Below, piece after piece: positions 6,983 through 39,211 of a stretch of 64,000 bases of DNA. Every line of letters begins with the position of its first letter. Position 1 is the first letter of the stretch. The stretch covers positions 736-64,735 of the forward strand of contig CAZWMG010000006.1 of assembly GCA_964634945.1 (NCBI GenBank), in the 5' to 3' direction. The stretch is from an uncultured Planctomycetia bacterium (GTDB lineage: Bacteria > Omnitrophota > Gorgyraeia > JABMRG01). The translations under genes and the position numbers were made by a program. The notes under the pieces were generated by a model. The model did no database searches, had not been told where the DNA came from, and worked only from the letters and a program-made list of their open reading frames with translations.

Positions 6983-7255
6983 TTACAAGATTTTCCTTGA
7001 AGCCTTCTTATAGATATCTCTTCTATGCCCAACGGTTAGAACGATGATCAAGATTTGCTGATGTAAGATCTTGTATATTATACGGTAATCTCCAGAGCGG
7101 TAAGAATGCAAACCAGAAAGCCTCTTTGTTAAGCATTTTCCTATCAAAGGGTCATGGGCAATGCGCTGTATCGCGTCTTTTACTTGGCGCTTCTTCTTAG
7201 CAGATAAGGTAGTTATATTGCCTGTAGCTTCTTTTGTGAATTTAACATTATACAT
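6983..7255 (-). CDS. RelE/ParE-family toxin
   Basis: 'YRIIYKI...IIVLTVGHRRDIYKK' is the typical RelE/ParE C-terminal region. The likely start (MYNVKF, 7255) overlaps the phd stop by 8 nt. Confidence 0.6.
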   Translation of the reverse strand: MYNVKFTKEATGNITTLSAKKKRQVKDAIQRIAHDPLIGKCLTKRLSGLHSYRSGDYRIIYKILHQQILIIVLTVGHRRDIYKKASRKIL

Positions 7256-7499
7256 CACCAAAAACTTCCTCAAATGTAAAAAGCCTGCCTTCTTTTATAT
7301 CTTTTTTAGCTTTTTGGATAGAGGCTAGCATATTCTTATCAGCCATAATTTCAAGCGTCTCCAGCTCTTCCGGAGAAAGCATAACAGCCTCTGCCCTGCC
7401 ATTTCTGGTGATAATCAAGTGTTTGCCAAAATGAGCTATTTTTTTAATCAACTCAGGCAATTTGCCTCTTGCTTCTGATATAGGAACTATATAATCCAT
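7248..7499 (-). CDS. Phd/YefM-family antitoxin
   Basis: 'MDYIVPISEARGKLPELIKKI...IITRNGRAEAVMLSPEELETLEI' is Phd/YefM-like. The ATG at 7499 is preceded by 'GGAGGTGAGGCAA'. Confidence 0.65.
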   Translation of the reverse strand: MDYIVPISEARGKLPELIKKIAHFGKHLIITRNGRAEAVMLSPEELETLEIMADKNMLASIQKAKKDIKEGRLFTFEEVFGDV

Positions 7500-7520
7500 T
7501 TGCCTCACCTCCAAAGTAAT

Positions 7521-7543
7521 TGTACAATATTTTGTACAATATG
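7521..7543 (-). promoter_or_regulatory. direct-repeat operator candidate upstream of phd
   Basis: 'tgtacaatat' occurs twice (7521-7530 and 7534-7543) immediately upstream of the phd RBS. Confidence 0.35.
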
Positions 7544-7574
7544 TCAATAGCTAGTATGAAATTCCTAAAATTTA

Positions 7575-8006
7575 TTATTGAAGTTTTGATGAGTGAGAAG
7601 TAGCGCGCGTTTTCTTAAAAAATAACCAGGTATTATCTTTACCATCTTTAGGGGTAAATTTTAATAGGCAATATTGGCCTGTTAATCTCTTGCCATGCAA
7701 GTCAAATACAATCTCTTTTTTATCTGCTTTTATTAGGCCATATGTGCCTTTGTCCCATATCTCTACTGTGCCCGCGCCATAATGGCCCTGCGGTATCTCC
7801 CCTTCAAAATCAGCATAATCCAATGCATGGTCCTCAACCTTAATAGCTAGTCGCCTTACACCTGGCACTACAGGCGGTTCTTTTGGTATAGCCCAGCTTT
7901 TTAAGGCCCTTTCTCTCTCAAGCCTAAAGTCGTAATGCAGATGTGAGGCATTATGCTTTTGTACAACAAATATAAGCTGTTTGCGCTGTTTTTGATTATT
8001 TTTCAT
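7575..8006 (-). CDS. stand-alone DNA ligase D 3'-phosphoesterase (PE) domain protein
   Basis: 'FVVQKHNASHLHYDFRLE...' matches the LigD PE domain signature (QxHxA..LHYDFRLE). Confidence 0.7.
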   Translation of the reverse strand: MKNNQKQRKQLIFVVQKHNASHLHYDFRLERERALKSWAIPKEPPVVPGVRRLAIKVEDHALDYADFEGEIPQGHYGAGTVEIWDKGTYGLIKADKKEIVFDLHGKRLTGQYCLLKFTPKDGKDNTWLFFKKTRATSHSSKLQ

Positions 8007-8024
8007 ATTTGCCTAATCGTTATG

Positions 8025-8186
8025 TTAAAATTTATGGCTCACCTTAGCTCTTGGACCTTTCAATTCAAAATCTGTCTGAGTACCTAAATCCGCTGGATTG
8101 GACTTATTCTTCTTTGTCGCATGCAACTTAATTGAAGCGCAGCCACTAACAAGGGCCAATATAATAAACATAAAAAATACTCTCAT
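8025..8186 (-). CDS. small lipoprotein (about 54 aa)
   Basis: Manual translation gives MRVFFMFIILALVSGCASIKLHATKKNK...; the lipobox is 'LVSGC'. Absent from the ORF track because it is under 60 aa. Confidence 0.3.
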   Translation of the reverse strand: MRVFFMFIILALVSGCASIKLHATKKNKSNPADLGTQTDFELKGPRAKVSHKF

Positions 8187-8309
8187 ATTATAATATTATA
8201 GTTTTGTTATATAGAAATAGCAAGAATGAATTACGAATAGACATAGGAAGATTTTGTATTAGATGCTGGTTTTTAATGATATGCGATTATAATGGGAATT
8301 TTAAAAATA

Positions 8310-9224
8310 TCAGAACGAGTATGCTAATGAGGATATAACACGGAGATCATTATCTTTTGTATCTGCCGGCGGCGCCGCGTTGTAATCATCTATAAGACTT
8401 ATGCGCAGGCTTAACTTATGATTCATGGCGATATCGAGCATTGTTTCTGAGTGGATCCTGTAATCACTGAAATCCTCAAAAACAGGGTAATACAATATGT
8501 TCTGCGTGATTTTTGTGTTACTAAATAATTTTTTCTCAAAAAATGCCCTGGGAACAAGTACCCAATCCCCTTTATCCTTTATATTAGACCTGTATGAGGT
8601 ATGCTCATAACCCGCGCCTGCTTCAACCATCAGCTTTAATCTAGGCAGATCATAGAGCCAGTAACCGAGACCTGCAGCGGGTACAAACCTGTAATCTATA
8701 TCAGCAAACCTGTCGTGATCTGCCTCTATCCTATAAAAATTATACCACCTCTTCATGCTTCCAAAGCTATAAGCATATCTTCCCATACTATACCACTTAT
8801 GCGCATCCATCTTGTTGTTTGCCGAGGAATAATACATGTTACCTTTAGCTGTCCATTCGTCAATATGCTTATTCTCTCTATTAAGCAGGAAACTGCCTGA
8901 GAACTGGCTTTCACGCGTATTGCCTGTAGCGTAATTATAGCCCAATGCAACCTCTCTCTTCCATATTATATCTGTCGGATCATTGATATCTTTTCGCAAG
9001 CCATCTTCTGCTCTAACAATATGGCCTATCAAGTCTCTCTTTACCACGATTGAACCCATAGCCTCTGTCTCTACAGAAAGGCTATCCTGTTCTTCCTGCG
9101 TTATCTGCCCGCTTATCTTATCACCATTCTTAAGATATATCTCATCAGCGTAAACAGTGGCAAGAAATCCAGTAAAAAATACAATCGTTATTAAAAGACG
9201 TGTAAATATCTGATTCATATTCAA
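8310..9224 (-). CDS. outer-membrane beta-barrel protein, DUF481-like
   Basis: Signal peptide, Tyr/Gly-rich alternating pattern and C-terminal '...SLAYSF' ending in Phe. Confidence 0.5.
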   Translation of the reverse strand: MNMNQIFTRLLITIVFFTGFLATVYADEIYLKNGDKISGQITQEEQDSLSVETEAMGSIVVKRDLIGHIVRAEDGLRKDINDPTDIIWKREVALGYNYATGNTRESQFSGSFLLNRENKHIDEWTAKGNMYYSSANNKMDAHKWYSMGRYAYSFGSMKRWYNFYRIEADHDRFADIDYRFVPAAGLGYWLYDLPRLKLMVEAGAGYEHTSYRSNIKDKGDWVLVPRAFFEKKLFSNTKITQNILYYPVFEDFSDYRIHSETMLDIAMNHKLSLRISLIDDYNAAPPADTKDNDLRVISSLAYSF

Positions 9225-9346
9225 ATTTTCCTTAACAGCAATATTATTGTATATTACTCCTTATAAGTTTTACATGCAAGTGATTTTGTTAAGATACGAA
9301 TTGGTATGGCAAGGCCTTTTTTGATAGGATACAACAGGTAATAGTT

Positions 9347-12300
9347 TTAGCTGCTTATAGCGAAACCTAAGTTTACCTTATTACGATTAGCGCGCCTTGT
9401 TACGGGACTTGTGTTGGGATATCCTAGCTTGCGCGCTACATTCATATTTTTAATAGGGATGTTTTCTACTGCTAATCTTTCAACGGCGCCTTTAAGCTCA
9501 TGAATAAATACGCTTCTCCTCGAAAGCACTCCCAATAAACTGAAATCTATCTTATGATATTTAGAGCGCCTTGTTAGCTCCTTTGATTCCTTATAGCCGA
9601 GTTTGTACGCTACATTGCATATGGTTGGCAGCTTATCTTCTTCGATTAATTCTTTAACAGCGCCTGCAACCTTATGTATAAATTTATCTCTGCTGAAAAC
9701 CACTAATCCTAATAAACTTAAATCTATACTATAATAATTCGCGAGCTTTGTTATAGGACCTGCTGTATCATAGCCTAGTTTGCGTGCTACGTTTCGCGTA
9801 ATAGGCAGTTCACCTTTGTCTGTTAATTCCTTAACAGCGCCTTCAACCTTATAAATAAAAACATCTCTACTTGTAAACAATCCTAGCAAGTTTAAGTCTA
9901 TACCATGATACTTGGCTAGTCTTGTCAAGGACCCTGTTTTCTCATAGCCTAGTTTGCGTGCTATATTTCGCGTAATAGGCAACTCTCCTTCTTCTATCAA
10001 TTCTTTAACAACACCTTTAATCTTTTGTATAGTCTTATCTCTACTGCCGCTGGAAGAAGCCTTAACAGCCCCATTAAGGGCCTTTAAAACTTCAGGATGC
10101 GCGCTTAAATACTCTTTTACTCTTGCGTCATAATCAGCCTCTTTTGCTTTTTGCATAGTAAGTTCTTCCTGCCATTTAGGTTCAATGGTTTTACCAGGAA
10201 AAGCCTTCTCAAGCCATTGAATCTGGTGCTTTGCACACCATCCATGTGAAATGTTACTTGGTATCTTTATTTCTGTTACCTCGTACGCCTTGCCGCATGT
10301 AGCGCACATTGAAACCTTAATATTTTTCCCTTTGATATACTTCTCAACTATGGGCTCAACGATGTCTCTGCTGCCTATAAAACCATGCGTTAATAAGAGT
10401 ATTTGGAATAGATGGTCATTGTTCAGGATATCCTCATCCTCTTTTATATCTAAATTAAGGGTATCGATATCACCTGCCTCATCACCATGGTAAAATGCTA
10501 ACAATGCATCCGCTATCTTAAAGTAACGTTGAAGCTTAGTATCTGCCGCAATAATAGGGCTAATAGTAGGCACTTTGCCTAAATAGATATTGCCTGTATT
10601 GCCATCTATTGTTATGGTATCGCCATTTTCGATCCTACAGGGTTTGCCAGTATTATCTGTATACACAATACCGCTGTCATCACGTGCAAAATTAGCGCCA
10701 GCACGAAGAGTTACAGCCGGTTTTATAATATCTGCTGTTCCCATTTTTTCTCTGGCTAATTCCGCGATATGGTTAATCAATGAATCTTCCTTTGTAATAA
10801 AGCCCACGGGCCAGTACATGTCAATCTGGCTGTGAAAAAATGATGAGCCCATAGCCGCAATAGGGTTATCATACTTATCAAATAAAAATCTATCGGGGTT
10901 CTCACGCACAATTAACCTTCCTGTTACAACACCCGGAGAAAGCGGAAATCCCCTTAAAACAGGCTCTATGTCACAATTAGGGCTTACTACAGGCGATTTG
11001 AGTAAGGAGATAAAATGATCTATCCGTTCCGACTCCTTTAAAACGCTTCCGCTCTCTTCGTAATCAATACTAAGAATATCTCTTGTAGCTATATCTGAAT
11101 AGCTTATCTTATCAGCAACTTCACGATACGTCAGAGTACCATTGATTCCCATATCGATCGCGTAATGGACCAGGGCCACAGGATGTACAAGAGCAGATCT
11201 TTGTTGAAGAATATACAATTTACCGCCTTCAATAGTAAATTCAATATTTCTAATATCATTGTAAACTGTCTCTAATTTCCTAGCATTCTTTTTAATAGCG
11301 GCTAATTGTGCCGGGAACATCTTTTCAAAAGTCTCTTTATAAAATATTACCTGTCCGCTTGAAGGCGTTACAACCGCAGGCCCTTGTGACTTATGAGCCA
11401 TTTCAATGTATACGCTGTTCTCGCCTGTTATCGGGTGCCTTGAAGCGGCAATACCGGTGCATGAGTTGTTATTGAGATTACCAAAAACCATCGCCTGCAC
11501 AGTAAAAGCTATATATGTGCTATCTCCTAGCATTTTTTTACTGTGCAAAAGCCGAGCTTGTTTTGAAAGATCTCCCATATCACCTTCTTGATATTTTTTG
11601 AAAGCTTCTACCGCAAGCGCTAACTGCTGCCATGGGTCCTCAGGGAATTCTATATTGTGCTTGTCTAATAGATATTTTTTTAGCTTACTAATAGTTTCCT
11701 TGTATACCAACTTCTTAGGCACCCCGTCTTTACTTATCAGTTCAAAGCCTACAAAATGGTGCGCATTATCATATTTTCTAATAAAGTTATTTTTATATAT
11801 CTCTAATATGTCATAATCCAAAGTATTGATAATGTCAACACCCAACACAGCCTCACTATAAAAGCATAAATACATTAAATACATATTGTACAATTCAACC
11901 TTATCTTCGAACCGCTTCTCCAAGGCCTTGACTGTCTCGTCATTTAAACCTATATTGAGCAATGTGGACAATTTCCCGGGCTCAACAAATGGATATCCTG
12001 CCCTGATTGAAAGAAATAGCGGTTTTTTAGCATCCCCGAAATAGCGCTCTTTTCCTGATAAAGCTTTCATCCGCTTTTCTATCTCACCTACCGCACGGCG
12101 CAATGATGCACGATCATTTGATAGAGTTCTAATCTCATCTGATGTAATTTCAGAATCGATAACAAATCCCGGAGGAACAGGCATATTCTCCAAGGCTAGT
12201 CGCATTAGGCCTGAGCCCTTATCACTCAATAGGATTTTATTCTCAGGATTGCCGTCCGCATAGCCGGGCCAAAAAAAGTGCAGGTGAGCAATGTCAGGCG

Positions 12301-12487
12301 ATAGTCGCACATCAGCTTGTAAGTGAGTATCTCTATCCGCCTCAGCCATGGCCCCTAAAATACCAGACGATGCCTGTGGTCTCAGCGCATCTATTTTTGA
12401 CTTTTTTATCTCTGCAAAGAGACAGCCTTGCCCCACACCATTGAAGGCAAATGCAACTACTATTATAAATATAATTATACTTTTCAT
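9347..12487 (-). CDS. signal-anchored PPDK/PEP-synthase-like ATP-grasp protein with a PEP-utilizer swivel domain, a Cys/His-rich module and four C-terminal tandem ~60-aa repeats
   Basis: The N-terminal hydrophobic segment is followed by 'PVPPGFVI...PLFLSIRAGYP...LLNIGLNDETV' and 'TGIAASRHPITGENSVYIE...IEFTIEGGKLYILQQRSA', matching the PPDK_N / PEP-synthase nucleotide-binding domain. 'GFPLSPGVVTGRLIV...DSLINHIAELAREKMG...IENGDTITIDGNTGNIY' resembles the phospho-His mobile domain. Next comes 'KNIKVSMCATCGKAYEV...SHGWCAKH', then four repeats of 'ELPITRNIARKLGY...T..AKYH.IDL.LLG'. Confidence 0.6.
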   Translation of the reverse strand: MKSIIIFIIVVAFAFNGVGQGCLFAEIKKSKIDALRPQASSGILGAMAEADRDTHLQADVRLSPDIAHLHFFWPGYADGNPENKILLSDKGSGLMRLALENMPVPPGFVIDSEITSDEIRTLSNDRASLRRAVGEIEKRMKALSGKERYFGDAKKPLFLSIRAGYPFVEPGKLSTLLNIGLNDETVKALEKRFEDKVELYNMYLMYLCFYSEAVLGVDIINTLDYDILEIYKNNFIRKYDNAHHFVGFELISKDGVPKKLVYKETISKLKKYLLDKHNIEFPEDPWQQLALAVEAFKKYQEGDMGDLSKQARLLHSKKMLGDSTYIAFTVQAMVFGNLNNNSCTGIAASRHPITGENSVYIEMAHKSQGPAVVTPSSGQVIFYKETFEKMFPAQLAAIKKNARKLETVYNDIRNIEFTIEGGKLYILQQRSALVHPVALVHYAIDMGINGTLTYREVADKISYSDIATRDILSIDYEESGSVLKESERIDHFISLLKSPVVSPNCDIEPVLRGFPLSPGVVTGRLIVRENPDRFLFDKYDNPIAAMGSSFFHSQIDMYWPVGFITKEDSLINHIAELAREKMGTADIIKPAVTLRAGANFARDDSGIVYTDNTGKPCRIENGDTITIDGNTGNIYLGKVPTISPIIAADTKLQRYFKIADALLAFYHGDEAGDIDTLNLDIKEDEDILNNDHLFQILLLTHGFIGSRDIVEPIVEKYIKGKNIKVSMCATCGKAYEVTEIKIPSNISHGWCAKHQIQWLEKAFPGKTIEPKWQEELTMQKAKEADYDARVKEYLSAHPEVLKALNGAVKASSSGSRDKTIQKIKGVVKELIEEGELPITRNIARKLGYEKTGSLTRLAKYHGIDLNLLGLFTSRDVFIYKVEGAVKELTDKGELPITRNVARKLGYDTAGPITKLANYYSIDLSLLGLVVFSRDKFIHKVAGAVKELIEEDKLPTICNVAYKLGYKESKELTRRSKYHKIDFSLLGVLSRRSVFIHELKGAVERLAVENIPIKNMNVARKLGYPNTSPVTRRANRNKVNLGFAISS

Positions 12488-12509
12488 TTTTAGAAAGGTT
12501 TCTTTAGCA

Positions 12510-15500
12510 TTAAGCGGCGCTTTGAATTGCTTTTCTTATATATGATACAGAGAGGTTTCTAGAATGCGTAATTAAACGCTCTGAGATCACAGGATGCATT
12601 TTTAGGTACTCTGCCACTCTCTCACCAACTTTAGCTTCTCTGGCTTCCTGCGCCCTAATACGTTTCAAGCGGGCAGGCCCATCTTGCTTGCTATAATCAT
12701 AGCGTTCAATGATGTTGCCTGCATCTTTAATACATTTTCCATGCGAAATACCACTTGGACCTTCGTATTTTCGCACTGCGTATATCCTGCCACATGTAGC
12801 GCACATTGATACCGTTATGTTTTTATCCTTGATATACCTTTTTACTATTTTTTCAACCAGAGCTTTATTATTTATAAGATAATACGTTAATAAGCGCATC
12901 TGAAATAGGTGGTCTTCCGTACTAATATTTACATCATTGAATATTCTCTCTAATTCTCTAGTACTGTTTTCAGGGGTCTTGTTACCCGAAGAAGAGGTTT
13001 TCTCCGTAACCGGTAAAACAGCAGTTGCAGTACCCGGGCGTATTGGAGCAAGATAACCGTTTATCCTGTTATCCTGATCCAGTCTGCGTTTCATGATAAC
13101 CTGCAATGAGCGCGCCAGAGAACTCACACCGCCAGTCTCTTTAAGTTCCGCATCGAGTAATTTTATGAATTCATCCGTGTGCATTCTTAACAAAACGCTC
13201 TTTTGCGATGCCACAACTGTCTTGCTTCTTGGAAGCTGTTTCGAATCATTGAATAATGACATAAACCTATCACGCATATCTTTATCCATATCCAAGCTCT
13301 TTATCTCTGAAATATCCATTACATTCCATATATAATAACCAGCACCTGCTATAAACTGCTGGCTTATCATGTCCTTCCTAAAAAGAGCCTTTAAATCATC
13401 TTCTGTATATAAGCTTAACGCTCTTCTAAGAATAGCCATCTCACCCAATACATGCCCCTTTCCTAATGTCTTTATACCATTCGGCATATCCGCGATACCT
13501 TCAATATTTACTTTTCCGCTTAATATTATATATACATATGGATTATCGATAGTAAGGTCTCCTTCTCTGTAGATTATATGCCCCCCTCTCATCTCCTCTA
13601 TACTACCTATAGTTGCAAACTGCTTTCTGATTAGATCCCCAAAAATAATATTTTCAGCAGTGGTCTCTATAACTGTTGACTCTTTCAGCAGGTTATCAGC
13701 CCTCACTATACTCTTACGCCTGTCAGCTCTCTTTATAACCCTCAATGATTCAAAGACCTGTGCCCTTTGGAGCCCAGGTTCATTCTGCTGGCCTGCCGAG
13801 TGGACAGTATGCACAGCACCAATATTAGCAAGCTCCTTAAACGCATCGATTAATTCCTCAGGCTCTATATGTACACCTGGCACACCATTTTCAGATATGA
13901 GAAGGTCAACACCATTTTCATAAAACTCAATAAACTTCTGCCTTAATGGGCTCTCTTTTGAAGGCATCAGAGAATCTGGTAAATAAGCGAAAATGCCTTT
14001 TTCAGTTGATATCCTAAACCCATACGTTGGCAGAGGGTGACCGAATGTTCTATTAAGAAGCATCTCCATCCCAGCAAAGAGTGACAGCGTATCATTAAAG
14101 AGAACAACTTCTCTATCCGCATCCTTTTCTGTCTTAACCAAAGGAAAGATCTTTTCAAAATCATATCTACTTATACCTGTTAAGGTGTTTAGATATTCAA
14201 ACGCTGTCTCGTAAACCGGGATAGCCGCTATCAGAGGCATTGAGCCTAATTGTCCACCATTAGCCTTTTTCAATAGTTGTTGGTAAGCAAAATCTGCCAT
14301 CCCGCCAAAGTGGTCCCAATGAACATGCGAAAGATAGAAGGCGTCAACATTATCTAAGAGTTCATTAGCCCTTATATTGCGCAAGGTCTGCGCTGAGGGG
14401 TCAACTAGAATGCCCTTGCCATTAATCGCCATTAATAAATTTGTATAATCCTGCTTACCACTAAAAGGCGTGGGATCCGCGTTACCAAAAGGCATTATTA
14501 CTAATTCATCCCTATCCTTTTCAGAGAGCTTAAACGCTTCCTCAACCATGTTGACTTGTCTTGGCGTCCATGATGAATAAAATTGATTTTCCCCGCGTGA
14601 GGCAAGGCACGCTCTGTCAATATAGTAGGCATGCGCACCCTCTCCCTCAGTGACGATAAGGCTATCTTCTGTTTTTTCTATTCTTAACGTATTAGCAGGC
14701 GTTTCCGATGAAGGCAAGCCCTTACTTAATGCAATACTGTCGCCAAGCGCCAAGACCCGAATATCGATTATTTCGTTAATTAATTTTTCTACGGCCTCGT
14801 CGTCTTTAAAAGATATATTGCCCTCTCTATTAAATAGCCCTCCGGGAAAATGAAACGACCTGTTACGGGCAAACTCCTTTGAAAGCATCTTAGCTATATC
14901 AACACTGTAACCGCTATCTATTAATTTTGCTTCATAAAATCCTGCATCATGACCAATAAAAAAAGACTTGAGCAATCTAAGAGTTTTTTTCTTCTTTATT
15001 TCTGAATCCACTACAACAGTAATTCTACCGCTTATTAACCCCTTAACAAGTACGTCTACATCATAGCCTGCATCCATAACCTCATATTTAAAAGTATCTA
15101 TCTCATCTACTTTACGCTGGTAACTCGAATAATCCTTTTCTAATGCCTTTAAATCATTGAGGAGTGCTGCATATCTTGCTGAATACCCCTTAATGATGGG
15201 ATCAAAAAACATTCTTTGAAAAAATAATCCTTCCAACACACTGCTGTTAACAAGGGGATCAAACGCCAAAAAAACAACATCGGGTTGCTCCTTAGCCTTG
15301 AGGAAGGTGTGAGAATTTTGCCTGTCATAAGCTGAAAATGATAGCGTAAATGAGCGATTGCCGTTTACATCGCCTTTTGTAGTAAGGGTAAAGTTATCCA
15401 ACAAATCAGTGCCTGAATTATCAGGATTCAACTTGTCTTGACCCGGATAAGATGCGCGCGGATTCTTAAAAACCCTTGTTTCTAAGACATCGTAAGCTTT

Positions 15501-16451
15501 TCTTAAATCCGCTCTATTATCTGTGGCCTCTTTAAACTCTTGATTCAACAGCACAAAAGCGGAATAAGCATCAGTGAAATATTTAGTCGGCGTAACTCCT
15601 AGTATCTTAATATTGCTATCTAATGAAGGGGCCTTGTCAATATATAAGTTAAGAACGCCAAAAAATATTCCTGTTTTTTTAGCGAATTTCTTTAAGTGGC
15701 CTCCTTTAAAAATTAAGTCCGCGGACCACTTAATCATCATCGCGTATGAGAGATAAGCTATGAGCTGTGGAAGTGTTGCAAATGAGGCAAACAAAGGTAA
15801 GATCGTATATGCCACAATAACAGCTGCTGCAGATAATATAATGCCCGCGCCTAAAAATGGGAGAAGTTCCCATCTACTGTTATATATTGCATTCTTTGTC
15901 TCTCTGCTTACAGAATGCGCCACTCTCTTGCCTATCGCATGTATAAAAGCGACTGGCAGATCAATTAAGCTGATCTTATTGTATATGGTAATTGTATCAG
16001 TAAACTTAAGGTATGATACCGGCAGATTCCTTGTAACTAAATTATCCGCAAATACAATCCTTATGCCCTGAATATGCTCTTTGGGTAATTTTTTTAATAA
16101 ATATATTAGAAGCGAAAGTCGGACAATAGAAAGACTGTTCGGATTATACATTATGATATTATTGTTCTCTAAGAAATCTTTGATAGTATCCGTATCTAAT
16201 AGGCTAAATTCAAGCCTTGTAGATAAGAGATCTTTAGCAATAAATTGACGCATGCCTTTTTCAAGCATCGCCTGTATTGTATAATTTTGAGGTATCGCCT
16301 TCTTAACAGGCTTGTAGCCCTGAGCATGAGTATTATCTGAAACTGAGAGCTTGTGAGAAGCTGGGCGCAGAGCAAATAAGTCAGGTGGTATACTGGCCAT
16401 AATGAGTGAAATAACCAGAAAAATTGATAAAACCCTGTAGAACTCTTTCAT
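12510..16451 (-). CDS. giant (1313-aa) membrane-anchored multidomain protein with an MBL-fold domain, a cNMP-binding-like domain and a C-terminal Cys/His-rich module
   Basis: N-terminal signal/anchor plus an internal TM pair ('LPFLGAGIILSAAAVIVAYTILPLF...'). 'AFYLSHVHWDHFGG' is the metallo-beta-lactamase HxHxDH motif. 'YVYIILSGKVNIE...GKGHVLGEMAIL' is CAP_ED (cNMP-binding)-like. The C-terminal 'KNITVSMCATCGRIYAV...SHGKCIKD' is paralogous to the module in the neighbouring gene. Confidence 0.55.
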   Translation of the reverse strand: MKEFYRVLSIFLVISLIMASIPPDLFALRPASHKLSVSDNTHAQGYKPVKKAIPQNYTIQAMLEKGMRQFIAKDLLSTRLEFSLLDTDTIKDFLENNNIIMYNPNSLSIVRLSLLIYLLKKLPKEHIQGIRIVFADNLVTRNLPVSYLKFTDTITIYNKISLIDLPVAFIHAIGKRVAHSVSRETKNAIYNSRWELLPFLGAGIILSAAAVIVAYTILPLFASFATLPQLIAYLSYAMMIKWSADLIFKGGHLKKFAKKTGIFFGVLNLYIDKAPSLDSNIKILGVTPTKYFTDAYSAFVLLNQEFKEATDNRADLRKAYDVLETRVFKNPRASYPGQDKLNPDNSGTDLLDNFTLTTKGDVNGNRSFTLSFSAYDRQNSHTFLKAKEQPDVVFLAFDPLVNSSVLEGLFFQRMFFDPIIKGYSARYAALLNDLKALEKDYSSYQRKVDEIDTFKYEVMDAGYDVDVLVKGLISGRITVVVDSEIKKKKTLRLLKSFFIGHDAGFYEAKLIDSGYSVDIAKMLSKEFARNRSFHFPGGLFNREGNISFKDDEAVEKLINEIIDIRVLALGDSIALSKGLPSSETPANTLRIEKTEDSLIVTEGEGAHAYYIDRACLASRGENQFYSSWTPRQVNMVEEAFKLSEKDRDELVIMPFGNADPTPFSGKQDYTNLLMAINGKGILVDPSAQTLRNIRANELLDNVDAFYLSHVHWDHFGGMADFAYQQLLKKANGGQLGSMPLIAAIPVYETAFEYLNTLTGISRYDFEKIFPLVKTEKDADREVVLFNDTLSLFAGMEMLLNRTFGHPLPTYGFRISTEKGIFAYLPDSLMPSKESPLRQKFIEFYENGVDLLISENGVPGVHIEPEELIDAFKELANIGAVHTVHSAGQQNEPGLQRAQVFESLRVIKRADRRKSIVRADNLLKESTVIETTAENIIFGDLIRKQFATIGSIEEMRGGHIIYREGDLTIDNPYVYIILSGKVNIEGIADMPNGIKTLGKGHVLGEMAILRRALSLYTEDDLKALFRKDMISQQFIAGAGYYIWNVMDISEIKSLDMDKDMRDRFMSLFNDSKQLPRSKTVVASQKSVLLRMHTDEFIKLLDAELKETGGVSSLARSLQVIMKRRLDQDNRINGYLAPIRPGTATAVLPVTEKTSSSGNKTPENSTRELERIFNDVNISTEDHLFQMRLLTYYLINNKALVEKIVKRYIKDKNITVSMCATCGRIYAVRKYEGPSGISHGKCIKDAGNIIERYDYSKQDGPARLKRIRAQEAREAKVGERVAEYLKMHPVISERLITHSRNLSVSYIRKAIQSAA

Positions 16452-38777: not shown

Positions 38778-39211
38778 ATTTATCTATCCTCCTTAGTTAG
38801 CAGCCTAAGATCTATAAGGCATAAAAAAAGCCCTAAAACATTTAAAAGGTATCTACCTCTTGAAAGTTTTAGGGCTTGAAAAATCAATATCTGATATTTC
38901 GGCAACCCGACTACCGTACCCTTTGACAATTCTGGGTTTAGGCTCGCGGCTTTGCGCCCCGCTCTTTCAAGCGGTTTGCCTTTATCGTTACTTTTTTAAA
39001 AGAACCTTTGTTTCTTCTCATAACAAATATGCCCTACCCTTTACCAAAAGTCAAGGGGTTAGAAGTATATTTTTACATTTCTACACTTTTACACTTTGTC
39101 CATCTCATTAAAATGATCCGTAGCAATCTTCACAGGAACGTACAATTTTACCCAACGTATAAAATTGTACTACACCTGTTCTCAATATTGTTCACACCTT
39201 CTGCCTTCACT

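What the first reader, a model, noticed from the sequence alone, without database searches (positions are those of the whole stretch)
9347..16451. The two adjacent giant proteins share a paralogous Cys/His-rich module
'NDHLFQILLLTHGFIGSRDIVEPIVEKYIKGKNIKVSMCATCGKAYEVTEIKIPSNISHGWCAKH' in the 1046-aa protein aligns with 'EDHLFQMRLLTYYLINNKALVEKIVKRYIKDKNITVSMCATCGRIYAVRKYEGPSGISHGKCIKD' in the 1313-aa protein, giving roughly 50% identity over ~65 aa with conserved C-x2-C ... H-G-x-C spacing. The same putative metal-binding module sits near the C-terminus of both neighbours. This fits two partner proteins that dimerise or recognise a common ligand through it. I do not recognise the module.
Basis: seen in the sequence. 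Interest (0 to 1): 0.7.

Follow-up and report, generated by a model that had tools for sequence, protein, structure and literature searches.

The report
Duplicated zinc module in neighbouring proteins
Two neighbouring large proteins of an uncultured Omnitrophota bacterium really do share a rare, unannotated ~125-residue domain that probably binds zinc, but related genomes keep it only in the upstream protein, so it is a lineage-specific domain copy of moderate interest rather than the conserved glue of the pair.

Summary
The module occurs only twice in the window.

AlphaFold models it confidently (pLDDT 89). A three-stranded sheet carries a C-x2-C knuckle and an invariant S-H-G-x-C-x2-[H/D/C], flanked by helices. 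No Pfam, NCBIfam, PHROG or PDB entry matches it. An exhaustive HMM search of 1.84 billion proteins found only B, its Orphnella orthologue, a tandem-module Omnitrophota protein and a 63-aa phage protein.

B is a membrane-anchored metallo-beta-lactamase plus cNMP-binding protein, and every B orthologue ends with the module. A is a PPDK-like ATP-grasp plus phospho-His protein without the PEP domain. Its two Orphnella orthologues lack the module although the gene pair and synteny are conserved.

The duplication is old (third codon positions 48% identical), and gain versus loss in A is unresolved. The zinc core resembles, at motif level only, a widespread unannotated C-terminal tail of bacterial signalling proteins. 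I judge a docking or output role most likely, but this is untested.

The parts
12510..16451 (-). ORF B, 1313 aa. N-terminal hydrophobic anchor plus further TM segments (~aa 196-250), an MBL-fold hydrolase domain, a cNMP-binding domain, a K-x-SSSG motif and the C-terminal module.
   Evidence: ORF. Pfam Lactamase_B_2 28.7 bits and cNMP_binding 37.8 bits, both above cut-off. HxHxDH motif 'HVHWDH'. Hydropathy. Identical protein P0121 on public contigs.
12513..12944 (-). Module copy in B (aa 1170-1313), at the extreme C-terminus.
   Evidence: BLASTP E=3e-26 against A. Conserved at the C-terminus of the Orphnella B orthologues at 49-50% identity.
12723..12803 (-). Putative metal-binding core of the B copy: C1217, C1220, S1236-H1237-G1238, C1240, D1243.
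   Evidence: These columns are invariant in 7 copies. Residue positions.
9347..12487 (-). ORF A, 1046 aa. N-terminal hydrophobic anchor, PPDK-like ATP-grasp and phospho-His swivel domains, the module, K-x-SSSG and four tandem ~58-aa repeats. It has no PEP/pyruvate TIM barrel.
   Evidence: ORF. PF01326 at 53 bits; TIGR01828 positions 7-525 of 865 only, 215.7 bits against a cut-off of 843. Alignment with true PPDKs.
10070..10447 (-). Module copy in A (aa 681-806). It sits where PPDKs begin their PEP/pyruvate domain, and it is absent from both Orphnella A orthologues.
10226..10306 (-). Putative metal-binding core of the A copy: C728, C731, S747-H748-G749, C751, H754.
   Evidence: AF2 places the CxxC between strands 1 and 2, SHG in strand 3, and the last Cys at the start of a helix.
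10505..12262 (-). PPDK-like nucleotide-binding and swivel domains of A (aa 76-661). The catalytic-His equivalent is H573 (window 10769-10771).
   Evidence: H573 is invariant with the PPDK 'TSHAA' His in alignment A5. NCBIfam hit.
9350..10033 (-). Four tandem ~58-aa repeats at the C-terminus of A (consensus AVKELxxEGxLPxxxNVARKLGY..T..LTRRA....IDLSLLG). They look HTH-like. Copy number is 4, 4 and 3 in the three lineages.
   Evidence: Only weak matches: KfrA_N, HTH_50 and Phage_Cox in Pfam, and FliA sigma region 3 at E 0.1.
10034..10066 (-). K-x-SSSG motif of A ('VKASSSGSRDK', aa 808-818), immediately after the module.
   Evidence: Conserved in A and B of all three lineages.
12978..13010 (-). 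K-x-SSSG motif of B ('EKTSSSGNKTP', aa 1148-1158), about 12 aa before the module.
13812..14516 (-). MBL-fold hydrolase domain of B (aa ~646-880).
13062..13634 (-). cNMP-binding domain of B (aa ~940-1130, with an insertion).
   Evidence: The PADLOC hits cover this domain only.
12368..12487 (-). N-terminal hydrophobic segment of A plus the 'DALRPQAS' motif (ALRP at 12377-12388).
16347..16451 (-). N-terminal hydrophobic segment of B plus the 'FALRPASH' motif (ALRP at 16362-16373).

Best explanation
The shared segment is an old paralogous copy of a rare, unannotated ~125-residue domain that probably binds zinc. Two N-terminal helices lead into a three-stranded sheet. A C-x2-C knuckle lies between strands 1 and 2, and an invariant S-H-G-x-C-x2-(H/D/C) runs from strand 3 into the first turn of a helix, an order that resembles a treble-clef zinc finger. 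Three more helices follow, one of them long. The domain is native to the C-terminal end of protein B, a membrane-anchored MBL-fold (phosphodiesterase-like), cNMP-binding signalling protein, because every known B orthologue ends with it. In this lineage a second copy lies inside the downstream, probably co-transcribed protein A. A is a PPDK-derived ATP-grasp plus phospho-His 'swivel' enzyme that has lost the PEP/pyruvate domain, and the copy sits exactly where that substrate domain would be. I infer that the domain is a structural-zinc docking or output module. In that reading B's C-terminus couples its cyclic-nucleotide-dependent state to a partner, most plausibly protein A, and A's own copy lets it engage the same surface or pair with B's copy. 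Shown: the paralogy, the conservation pattern, the rarity, the fold prediction, the domain architectures and the phyletic pattern. Inferred: zinc binding, cytoplasmic location, and any docking or dimerisation role.
For: Paralogy: 44% identity over 124 ungapped residues, E=3e-26, and only two copies in the window. Age and constraint: DNA identity is 56%, third codon positions 48%, and the longest identical run is 17 nt. Even so, C, C, S-H-G and C are invariant in all 7 known copies, and the +3 position is always H, D or C. Fold: AF2 pLDDT 89 and pTM 0.78, with the order H-H-E-E-E-H-H-H. Native to B: the module is present at the C-terminus of B in all three lineages. Partner status of A and B: a 22-nt gap, conserved synteny, and shared ALRP and K-x-SSSG motifs. 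Linkage: between two Orphnella strains B is ~100% identical up to ~aa 1480 and then drops to 50-80% through the module. A is 46-82% identical, and identity returns to ~96% downstream. Each module allele travels with its own A allele in 8 contigs. Output-domain analogy: a motif-level relative (C-x2-C-x25-FSHGICPxC) ends PAS, REC and dCache signalling proteins in many phyla. A is probably catalytically competent, since the His equivalent to the PPDK catalytic His and the ATP-grasp motifs are conserved. B keeps HxHxDH.
Confidence: 0.45

Rival explanations
1. The module is a nucleic-acid-binding zinc finger, and both proteins are directed to the same DNA or RNA through it.
For: Its minimal stand-alone relatives are small phage proteins. 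P0126 lies next to a terminase gene. An 87-aa protein lies in a transposable-phage early region between regulator genes and the transposase. In A the module is followed by four HTH-like repeats. Galperin and colleagues predicted DNA/RNA binding for HalOD2, an analogous two-CXXC output domain of halobacterial response regulators (PMC5847659).
Against: No significant similarity to any DNA- or RNA-binding family or structure. Both proteins appear membrane-anchored. The HTH assignment of the repeats is not significant (E 0.1). The A orthologues keep the repeats without the module.
Confidence: 0.18
2. The Cys/His site is a sensor and not a structural site. It reports metal availability or redox state and so modulates B (and A).
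For: The fourth ligand position varies among H, D and C, as might be expected for a labile or tunable site. The tandem-module protein P0128 lies directly downstream of Fur-FeoA-FeoB in an Omnitrophota MAG. CxxC motifs are common redox switches (general knowledge).
Against: There is only one genomic association. The site has the ordinary layout of a structural 2+2 zinc site at a knuckle and a helix N-terminus. B already has a dedicated sensor domain (cNMP-binding).
Confidence: 0.12
3. The module, or the adjacent K-x-SSSG motif, is the phosphoryl acceptor of A's phospho-His swivel domain. A would then be a protein dikinase acting on itself and on B, with the invariant His of S-H-G or the Ser run as the target.
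For: In A the module and SSSG occupy the position of the PPDK acceptor (PEP/pyruvate) domain. The His of S-H-G is invariant although four other ligands are available. K-x-SSSG is conserved in A and B of all lineages and lies beside the module.
Against: This rests on position alone. No PPDK-family enzyme is known to me that phosphorylates a protein Ser or His in this way. S-H-G is also invariant in the widespread signalling tail, which has no dikinase partner.
Confidence: 0.08
4. The copy in A is an evolutionary by-product of domain shuffling in a recombination-prone locus, with no role in coupling A and B. The two copies act independently or the A copy is dispensable.
For: The locus is strongly mosaic between strains, with variable repeat number and a ~390-aa methyltransferase insert in Orphnella B. 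The A orthologues function without the module.
Against: Synonymous sites are saturated, yet all invariant residues and 37 of 109 aligned positions are identical across A and the three B copies. This indicates long purifying selection on the A copy. The insertion lies cleanly at a domain boundary.
Confidence: 0.15

Closest known systems
Unnamed, widespread C-terminal 'C-x2-C-x25-F-S-H-G-I-C-P-x-C' tail of bacterial signalling proteins, found here on PAS, REC and dCache proteins of Desulfobacterota, Acidobacteriota, Verrucomicrobiota, Spirochaetota, Bacteroidota and others
   Same: It has the same ordered signature, C-x2-C ... S-H-G-x-C-x2-(C/H/D). It sits at the C-terminus after a sensor domain, as the module does in B after the cNMP-binding domain. 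hhalign gives probability 94.7%, E 5.8e-8 over 42 columns. The tail HMM picks out the independently found intermediates P0124/P0128, the viral 87-aa protein and P0126 above 786 decoy ORFs. It is likewise absent from Pfam and NCBIfam.
   Different: The spacer is 25 residues in 77 of 80 tails but 15-16 in the module. The fourth ligand is always Cys in the tail but H or D in A and B. The module has ~45 extra N-terminal and ~50 extra C-terminal helical residues. Masking the Cys/SHG columns abolishes the profile match, and I selected the tail family by its SHGICPxC motif, so the evidence is motif-level and partly circular. The tail HMM does not detect the A or B modules directly.
Treble-clef and zinc-ribbon structural zinc fingers (generic fold classes, from general knowledge)
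   Same: Two ligand pairs are present. The first lies on a beta-hairpin knuckle and the second at the N-terminus of a helix after a beta-hairpin (AF2 secondary structure). The top-ranked, non-significant Foldseek PDB rows are small chains of about 40-70 residues from ribosome entries. I did not confirm which ribosomal proteins they are.
Adenylate kinase lid (Pfam PF05191, ADK_lid)
   Same: It has a C-x2-C-x16-C-x2-C/D metal site. From memory, the Asp variant occurs in Bacillus adenylate kinases, which would give a precedent for the C-C-C-D set of the B copy. There is a weak hmmscan hit to the B copy (E 0.0064).
   Different: The score of 16.8 bits is below the 26.6-bit cut-off, and there is no hit for the A copy. 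The context is different: ADK_lid is an insert in a kinase core.
Pyruvate, phosphate dikinase / PEP-utilising enzymes (for protein A as a whole)
   Same: ATP-grasp nucleotide-binding domain (PF01326) and central swivel domain with the catalytic His conserved.
   Different: It lacks the PEP/pyruvate TIM-barrel domain (PF02896), which every true PPDK hit carries. TIGR01828 scores 215.7 against a cut-off of 843. The C-terminus is instead the module plus SSSG plus HTH-like repeats, and there is an N-terminal hydrophobic anchor. In layout it recalls 'X, water dikinases' and rifampicin phosphotransferase, which pair the same two domains with a different substrate module (general knowledge, not tested).
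HalOD2 output domain of halobacterial response regulators (PMC5847659)
   Same: It is a C-terminal output domain with two conserved CXXC motifs 20-25 residues apart and is a predicted Zn finger.
   Different: It is known only from a description. No sequence comparison was made, and its phyletic range differs (halobacteria).

Membership tests
Structural zinc finger of treble-clef / zinc-ribbon type | Four metal ligands arranged as two pairs (C-x2-C ... C-x2-C/H/D) | tested here: met
   C48, C51 and C71 are invariant, and position 74 is H, D or C in all 7 copies.
Structural zinc finger of treble-clef / zinc-ribbon type | First pair on a beta-hairpin knuckle, second pair at the N-terminus of a helix (treble clef) or on a second knuckle (ribbon) | tested here: inconclusive
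   The AF2 secondary-structure order E43-48 / E54-59 / E65-69 / H72-82 fits a treble clef, but the coordinates could not be read to check ligand geometry.
Structural zinc finger of treble-clef / zinc-ribbon type | Significant structural similarity to a solved member | tested here: not met
Structural zinc finger of treble-clef / zinc-ribbon type | Stoichiometric metal actually bound | not testable with these tools
   Needs ICP-MS or a PAR assay on purified protein.
Widespread C-x2-C-x25-FSHGICPxC signalling tail (unnamed) | Ordered motif C-x2-C ... S-H-G-x-C-x2-C | tested here: inconclusive
   The order and S-H-G-x-C are met. The last ligand is H (A) or D (B) rather than C, but it is C in P0124 and P0126.
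Widespread C-x2-C-x25-FSHGICPxC signalling tail (unnamed) | Spacer of 25 residues containing the conserved R..D...W..(E).Y helix | tested here: not met
   77 of 80 tails have 25 residues. The module has 15-16 and lacks the W/E/Y columns.
Widespread C-x2-C-x25-FSHGICPxC signalling tail (unnamed) | Position within 6-36 residues of the C-terminus, after a sensor or receiver domain | tested here: inconclusive
   In B the module is C-terminal after the cNMP-binding domain, but ~70 residues follow the last ligand. In A the module is internal.
Widespread C-x2-C-x25-FSHGICPxC signalling tail (unnamed) | Profile similarity beyond the ligand/SHG columns | tested here: not met
   Masking those columns drops hhalign from 44.2 to 13.7 in an unrelated region. 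The tail HMM does not find the A or B modules.
Pfam ADK_lid (PF05191) | hmmscan score at or above the gathering threshold (26.6 bits) | tested here: not met
   16.8 bits for the B copy and no hit for the A copy.
Pyruvate, phosphate dikinase (protein A) | N-terminal ATP-grasp domain PF01326 | tested here: met
   53 bits against a cut-off of 27.
Pyruvate, phosphate dikinase (protein A) | Catalytic His of the swivel domain | tested here: met
   H573 is invariant with the PPDK 'TSHAA' His.
Pyruvate, phosphate dikinase (protein A) | C-terminal PEP/pyruvate-binding TIM barrel (PF02896) and an equivalog-level score | tested here: not met
   No PF02896 hit. TIGR01828 scores 215.7 against a cut-off of 843.45 and covers only positions 7-525 of 865.
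MBL-fold hydrolase with cNMP-binding domain (protein B) | HxHxDH metal motif and a Pfam MBL score above cut-off | tested here: met
   'HVHWDH'. Lactamase_B_2 scores 28.7 against a cut-off of 27.
MBL-fold hydrolase with cNMP-binding domain (protein B) | cNMP_binding PF00027 above cut-off | tested here: met
   37.8 bits against a cut-off of 27.5.
Anti-Pycsar Apyc1 (PF23023) | Score at or above the 50-bit gathering threshold | tested here: not met
   15.4 bits. PADLOC gives no defence-system assignment for A, and for B it matches only the cNMP-binding domain.

The most novel reading that the evidence does not exclude
B and A form a previously undescribed membrane-associated signalling pair of Omnitrophota. 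A cNMP-gated MBL phosphoesterase (B) and an ATP-driven phospho-His 'dikinase' (A) would act on a common target or on each other. The SHG-type zinc module would be the docking and specificity determinant, or even the phosphoryl acceptor together with the K-x-SSSG motif. The segment from B's module through most of A would diversify as a cassette between strains. By extension, the widespread unannotated C-x2-C-x25-FSHGICPxC tail of PAS, REC and dCache proteins would be a new class of signalling output domain working by the same principle.
Probability: 0.12. Interest if true: 0.7.

Novelty: new variant of a known kind. Interest (0 to 1): 0.4.

Why it matters
If the reading is right, this is a clean example of a small metal-binding domain copied between two probably co-transcribed signalling enzymes. 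It also defines a domain family that Pfam, NCBIfam, PHROGs and the PDB do not cover. Its main value is as an entry point. The S-H-G zinc signature links it, tentatively, to a very common but apparently unannotated C-terminal tail of bacterial PAS, receiver and dCache proteins whose output function is unknown. It also marks an unusual gene pair in the poorly understood Omnitrophota: a PPDK-derived phosphotransfer enzyme without its substrate domain, next to a cNMP-binding MBL hydrolase, with strain-level hypervariability. No function or mechanism has been demonstrated, and the module is dispensable in related A proteins, so the finding is a lead and not a discovery.

Tried and rejected
1. The word-indexed search of 5.8 billion proteins with module profiles returned nothing or only P0126, and missed even the query proteins themselves. 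I treat this as a sensitivity failure, not as absence.

2. The GTDB genome scan with module peptide patterns found no relative. The JGI metagenome scan found only three Orphnella-type B C-termini.

3. Remnant test: the 55-aa basic linker of A_O1 looked by eye like a decayed module ('IIEPI' against 'IVEPI'), but Smith-Waterman against shuffles gave p = 0.1-0.95. Rejected.

4. Polarising gain versus loss: the NJ tree puts modA outside the B copies with only 48% bootstrap, and the site patterns are 8, 5 and 11. Unresolved.

5. AF2 of the natural tandem P0124, as a proxy for module-module packing, gave pLDDT 37.5 and is uninformative. AFDB Foldseek was unavailable.

6. The second A-B BLAST hit (A 232-380 against B 837-981, E 5e-4) is absent from the orthologous pairs, so it is chance.

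7. My first reading of P0124 as phage-borne was wrong. The 35.7-kb contig shows a chromosomal context next to Fur-FeoAB. tblastn against INPHARED phages and an IMG/VR scan with P0124 or modB found nothing.

8. A defence-system reading (Apyc1/Pycsar): PADLOC gave no hit for A and only cNMP-domain hits for B. Rejected as unsupported.

9. Topology from flanking charges was ambiguous.

10. Literature searches for the motif or a name for the tail found nothing relevant.

11. The weak HNH-endonuclease PHROG hits (E~0.1) were considered. I rejected them because the spacing and the missing Asn/His do not fit a His-Me finger.

Full report
**Observation.** The window carries two adjacent minus-strand ORFs exactly as stated. 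B runs 12510-16451 (1313 aa) and lies upstream. A runs 9347-12487 (1046 aa) and starts 22 nt after B's stop codon.
- BLASTP of A against B gives a single ungapped alignment, A 681-804 against B 1170-1293, with 55/124 identities (44%) and E=3e-26.
- tblastn of either copy against all six frames of the window finds only these two places (E~1e-28; the next best is E>1).
- One detail is wrong. In A the module is internal and is followed by ~240 residues of tandem repeats, so it is near the C-terminus only in B.

**What the two proteins are.**
- Protein A has the PPDK N-terminal ATP-grasp domain (PF01326, 53 bits). It matches the PPDK equivalog model only over positions 7-525 of 865, at 215.7 bits against a cut-off of 843.
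- Aligned with true PPDKs, A keeps the nucleotide-binding motifs and the swivel-domain catalytic His (H573; 'INHIAELAR' against 'TSHAAVVAR'). After the swivel domain the PEP/pyruvate TIM barrel is missing. In its place come the module, a 'VKASSSGSRDK' motif and four ~58-aa repeats. The repeats match HTH-type families only weakly.
- Protein B has an N-terminal hydrophobic segment and further TM segments. It has an MBL-fold domain with HxHxDH, a cNMP-binding domain, 'EKTSSSGNKTP', and then the module to its last residue.
- PADLOC assigns neither protein to a defence system.

**The module itself.**
- Neither copy matches any Pfam, NCBIfam or PHROG family, or any PDB sequence, at significance.
- An exhaustive hmmsearch with the two-copy profile against 1.84 billion cluster representatives gave only seven hits at E<=1e-3. 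Three of them are repeat artefacts.
- The real hits are B itself, its Orphnella orthologue (P0122), a 276-aa protein with two tandem copies (P0124) and a 63-aa stand-alone protein (P0126).
- Across seven copies the invariant columns are C-x2-C, S-H-G and a further Cys. The position three residues later is H (A, P0122), D (B, B_O1) or C (P0124, P0126).
- AlphaFold2 on a six-sequence alignment gives a confident model (pLDDT 89, pTM 0.78). It has two helices, three strands, a short helix, a long helix and a final helix. The CxxC lies between strands 1 and 2, SHG lies in strand 3, and the last Cys lies at the start of the following helix. That order is what a treble-clef-type zinc site looks like. 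I could not read the coordinates to confirm the geometry.

**Comparative genomics.**
- In 5.8 billion proteins, A has only two relatives with the same architecture: P0002 (969 aa) and P0003 (837 aa). Both come from MAGs named Candidatus Orphnella occulta (Omnitrophota, Ace Lake; PMC8542988). Everything else is a true PPDK at ~30% identity.
- Synteny is conserved: Aldedh and STAS are divergent upstream, followed by B, A, DUF481, LigD_N and Phd/ParE.
- Both Orphnella B orthologues (1704 and 1699 aa) end with the module, at 49-50% identity to the window's B copy. It follows an extra ~390-aa insert with a methyltransferase signature.
- Both Orphnella A orthologues lack the module. P0003 passes directly from '...DIDSLQADKQD' to 'VSVKSSSSGS', and P0002 has an unrelated 55-aa basic linker. 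A and B of Orphnella share no BLAST-detectable similarity.
- The module is therefore a constant feature of B and a lineage-specific feature of A.

**Age of the duplication.**
- The two window copies are 56% identical in DNA and 48% at third codon positions, and the longest identical run is 17 nt.
- modA is equidistant from all B copies (43-46%), while the window and Orphnella B copies are 49-50% alike.
- The NJ bootstrap (48%) and the site patterns cannot decide between a gain in this lineage and a loss in Orphnella. The apparent remnant in P0002's linker is not significant.
- Retention of every invariant residue in A's copy over that time argues that the copy is under selection.

**Other links between A and B.**
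- Both proteins, in all three lineages, have an N-terminal hydrophobic segment followed by ALRP(A/Q/V)S, and both have a K-x-SSSG motif next to the module position. Among real ORFs of the window these motifs occur only in A and B.
- Between two Orphnella strains, B is ~100% identical through ~aa 1480 and then falls to 50-80% through the module. A is 46-82% identical. Identity returns to ~96% within A's last repeats and beyond.
- Module allele O1 is always found with A allele O1 (six contigs), and O2 with O2 (two contigs).
- This fits co-inheritance of B's module with A. However, there are only two haplotypes of adjacent DNA, and B is mosaic elsewhere as well (P0122).

**Wider relatives of the core.**
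- P0126 lies beside a phage terminase gene. A related 87-aa protein (C-x2-C-x15-S-H-S-x-C-x2-C) lies in a transposable-phage early region.
- P0124's cluster includes a protein from an Omnitrophota MAG. Its 35.7-kb contig shows a chromosomal setting just downstream of Fur-FeoA-FeoB. This corrects my earlier guess that it was phage-borne.
- 83 ORFs carry the motif, 6-36 residues from the C-terminus in nearly all of them. 77 of 80 have a C-x2-C exactly 25 residues upstream.
- The examples I scanned carry the tail after PAS, receiver or dCache domains, and neither Pfam nor NCBIfam models it.
- hhalign of the module against this tail family gives 94.7% probability and E 5.8e-8, well above column-shuffled controls (44 against a maximum of 27).
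- The signal vanishes when the Cys/SHG columns are masked, and I had chosen the family by part of that motif.
- The tail HMM does rank P0124/P0128, the viral 87-aa protein and P0126 above 786 decoy ORFs (E 8e-5 to 7e-3, against 0.055 or worse for decoys). It does not detect the A or B modules directly.
- I therefore regard the module's core as a probable short-spacer relative of a widespread, unannotated signalling tail. Homology is not proven. The helical flanks are specific to the Omnitrophota proteins.

**Interpretation.**
- The safest statement is that this is an old paralogous copy of a rare, probably zinc-binding domain. It is native to the C-terminus of the cNMP-binding MBL protein B and is also present in this lineage's PPDK-like protein A, at the site of the lost substrate domain.
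- For function I favour a structural-zinc docking or output module through which B communicates with a partner, most plausibly A. The reasons are its C-terminal position after a sensor domain, the analogy with the signalling tail, the operon arrangement, and the allele linkage.
- This is inference. The absence of the module from related A proteins shows that module-to-module pairing cannot be the general mechanism.
- The rivals are nucleic-acid binding, metal or redox sensing, a phospho-acceptor role, and a neutral by-product of shuffling. None of them is excluded.

**Verdict.** The domain is a new variant of a known kind (a small Cys/His metal-binding domain) and is of moderate interest.

Noticed in passing
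window 12377-12388 (A) and 16362-16373 (B); also L001 and L012 orthologues: A and B in all three lineages share an N-terminal hydrophobic segment followed about 10 residues later by ALRP(A/Q/V)S. Examples are 'KIDALRPQASS' in A and 'DLFALRPASHK' in B. 'ALRP' occurs nowhere else in the window's ORFs. It could be a common juxtamembrane docking or sorting motif.
   Followed up: partly
window 10034-10066 (A) and 12978-13010 (B): A conserved K-x-S-S-S-G-(S/N/R) motif flanks the module position in A and B of all lineages, including the A orthologues that lack the module. A similar 'KAHSSGN' lies between the two copies in P0124. Its function is unknown; it could be a linker or a modification/phospho-acceptor site.
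   Followed up: partly
L001 ~9400-12900 against L012 ~7800-10900: Between two Orphnella strains a bounded divergent block (50-80% protein identity) spans B's C-terminal module and most of A. Flanking sequence is 96-100% identical. P0122 shows a further mosaic segment in mid-B. The B-A locus appears to be a recombination or diversification hot spot.
   Followed up: partly
L001 4870-9984 and L012 3300-8399 (Orphnella B orthologues): Orphnella B proteins carry an extra ~390-aa insert, with a faint Methyltransf_25 hit, between the cNMP-binding domain and the module. The window's B lacks it.
   Followed up: no
window 9350-10033: A ends in four tandem ~58-aa repeats (AVKELxxEGxLPxxxNVARKLGY...). Their resemblance to HTH units (KfrA_N, sigma region 3) is not significant. 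Copy number is 4, 4 and 3 in the three lineages.
   Followed up: partly
L023-L142 (GTDB genomes, many phyla): A very common C-terminal tail ends PAS, receiver and dCache signalling proteins. Its consensus is 'LxGLLPICxxCKKIRDDxGYWxQxExYIxxHSxAxFSHGICPxCxxKLYP' (C-x2-C-x25-SHGICPxC). It has no Pfam or NCBIfam model in the copies searched. It looks like an undescribed or unannotated output domain.
   Followed up: partly
L143 6561-10846: The tandem-module protein P0128 (Omnitrophota MAG GCA_013202525.1) lies on the same strand directly downstream of Fur, FeoA and FeoB. This may hint at a link between this Cys/His domain and metal homeostasis.
   Followed up: no
L021 1841-2104; L017 3159-3350: Stand-alone 63-87-aa versions of the Cys/His core are phage-encoded. 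One lies in a transposable-phage early region between regulators and the transposase. The other lies near a terminase large-subunit gene.
   Followed up: partly
window 38898-38990 (-): A c-di-GMP-I riboswitch aptamer (Rfam RF01051, 80.8 bits), unrelated to the finding.
   Followed up: no
window 6983-9224 (-): Downstream of A lie a DUF481 gene, a stand-alone LigD_N domain gene and a Phd/ParE toxin-antitoxin pair, by synteny with the annotated loci. The order is conserved in Orphnella.
   Followed up: no
tool behaviour: The word-indexed protein search given a ~128-aa domain profile failed to return the long proteins that contain exact copies of the query. Negative results from it for domains embedded in long proteins should not be trusted.
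   Followed up: yes
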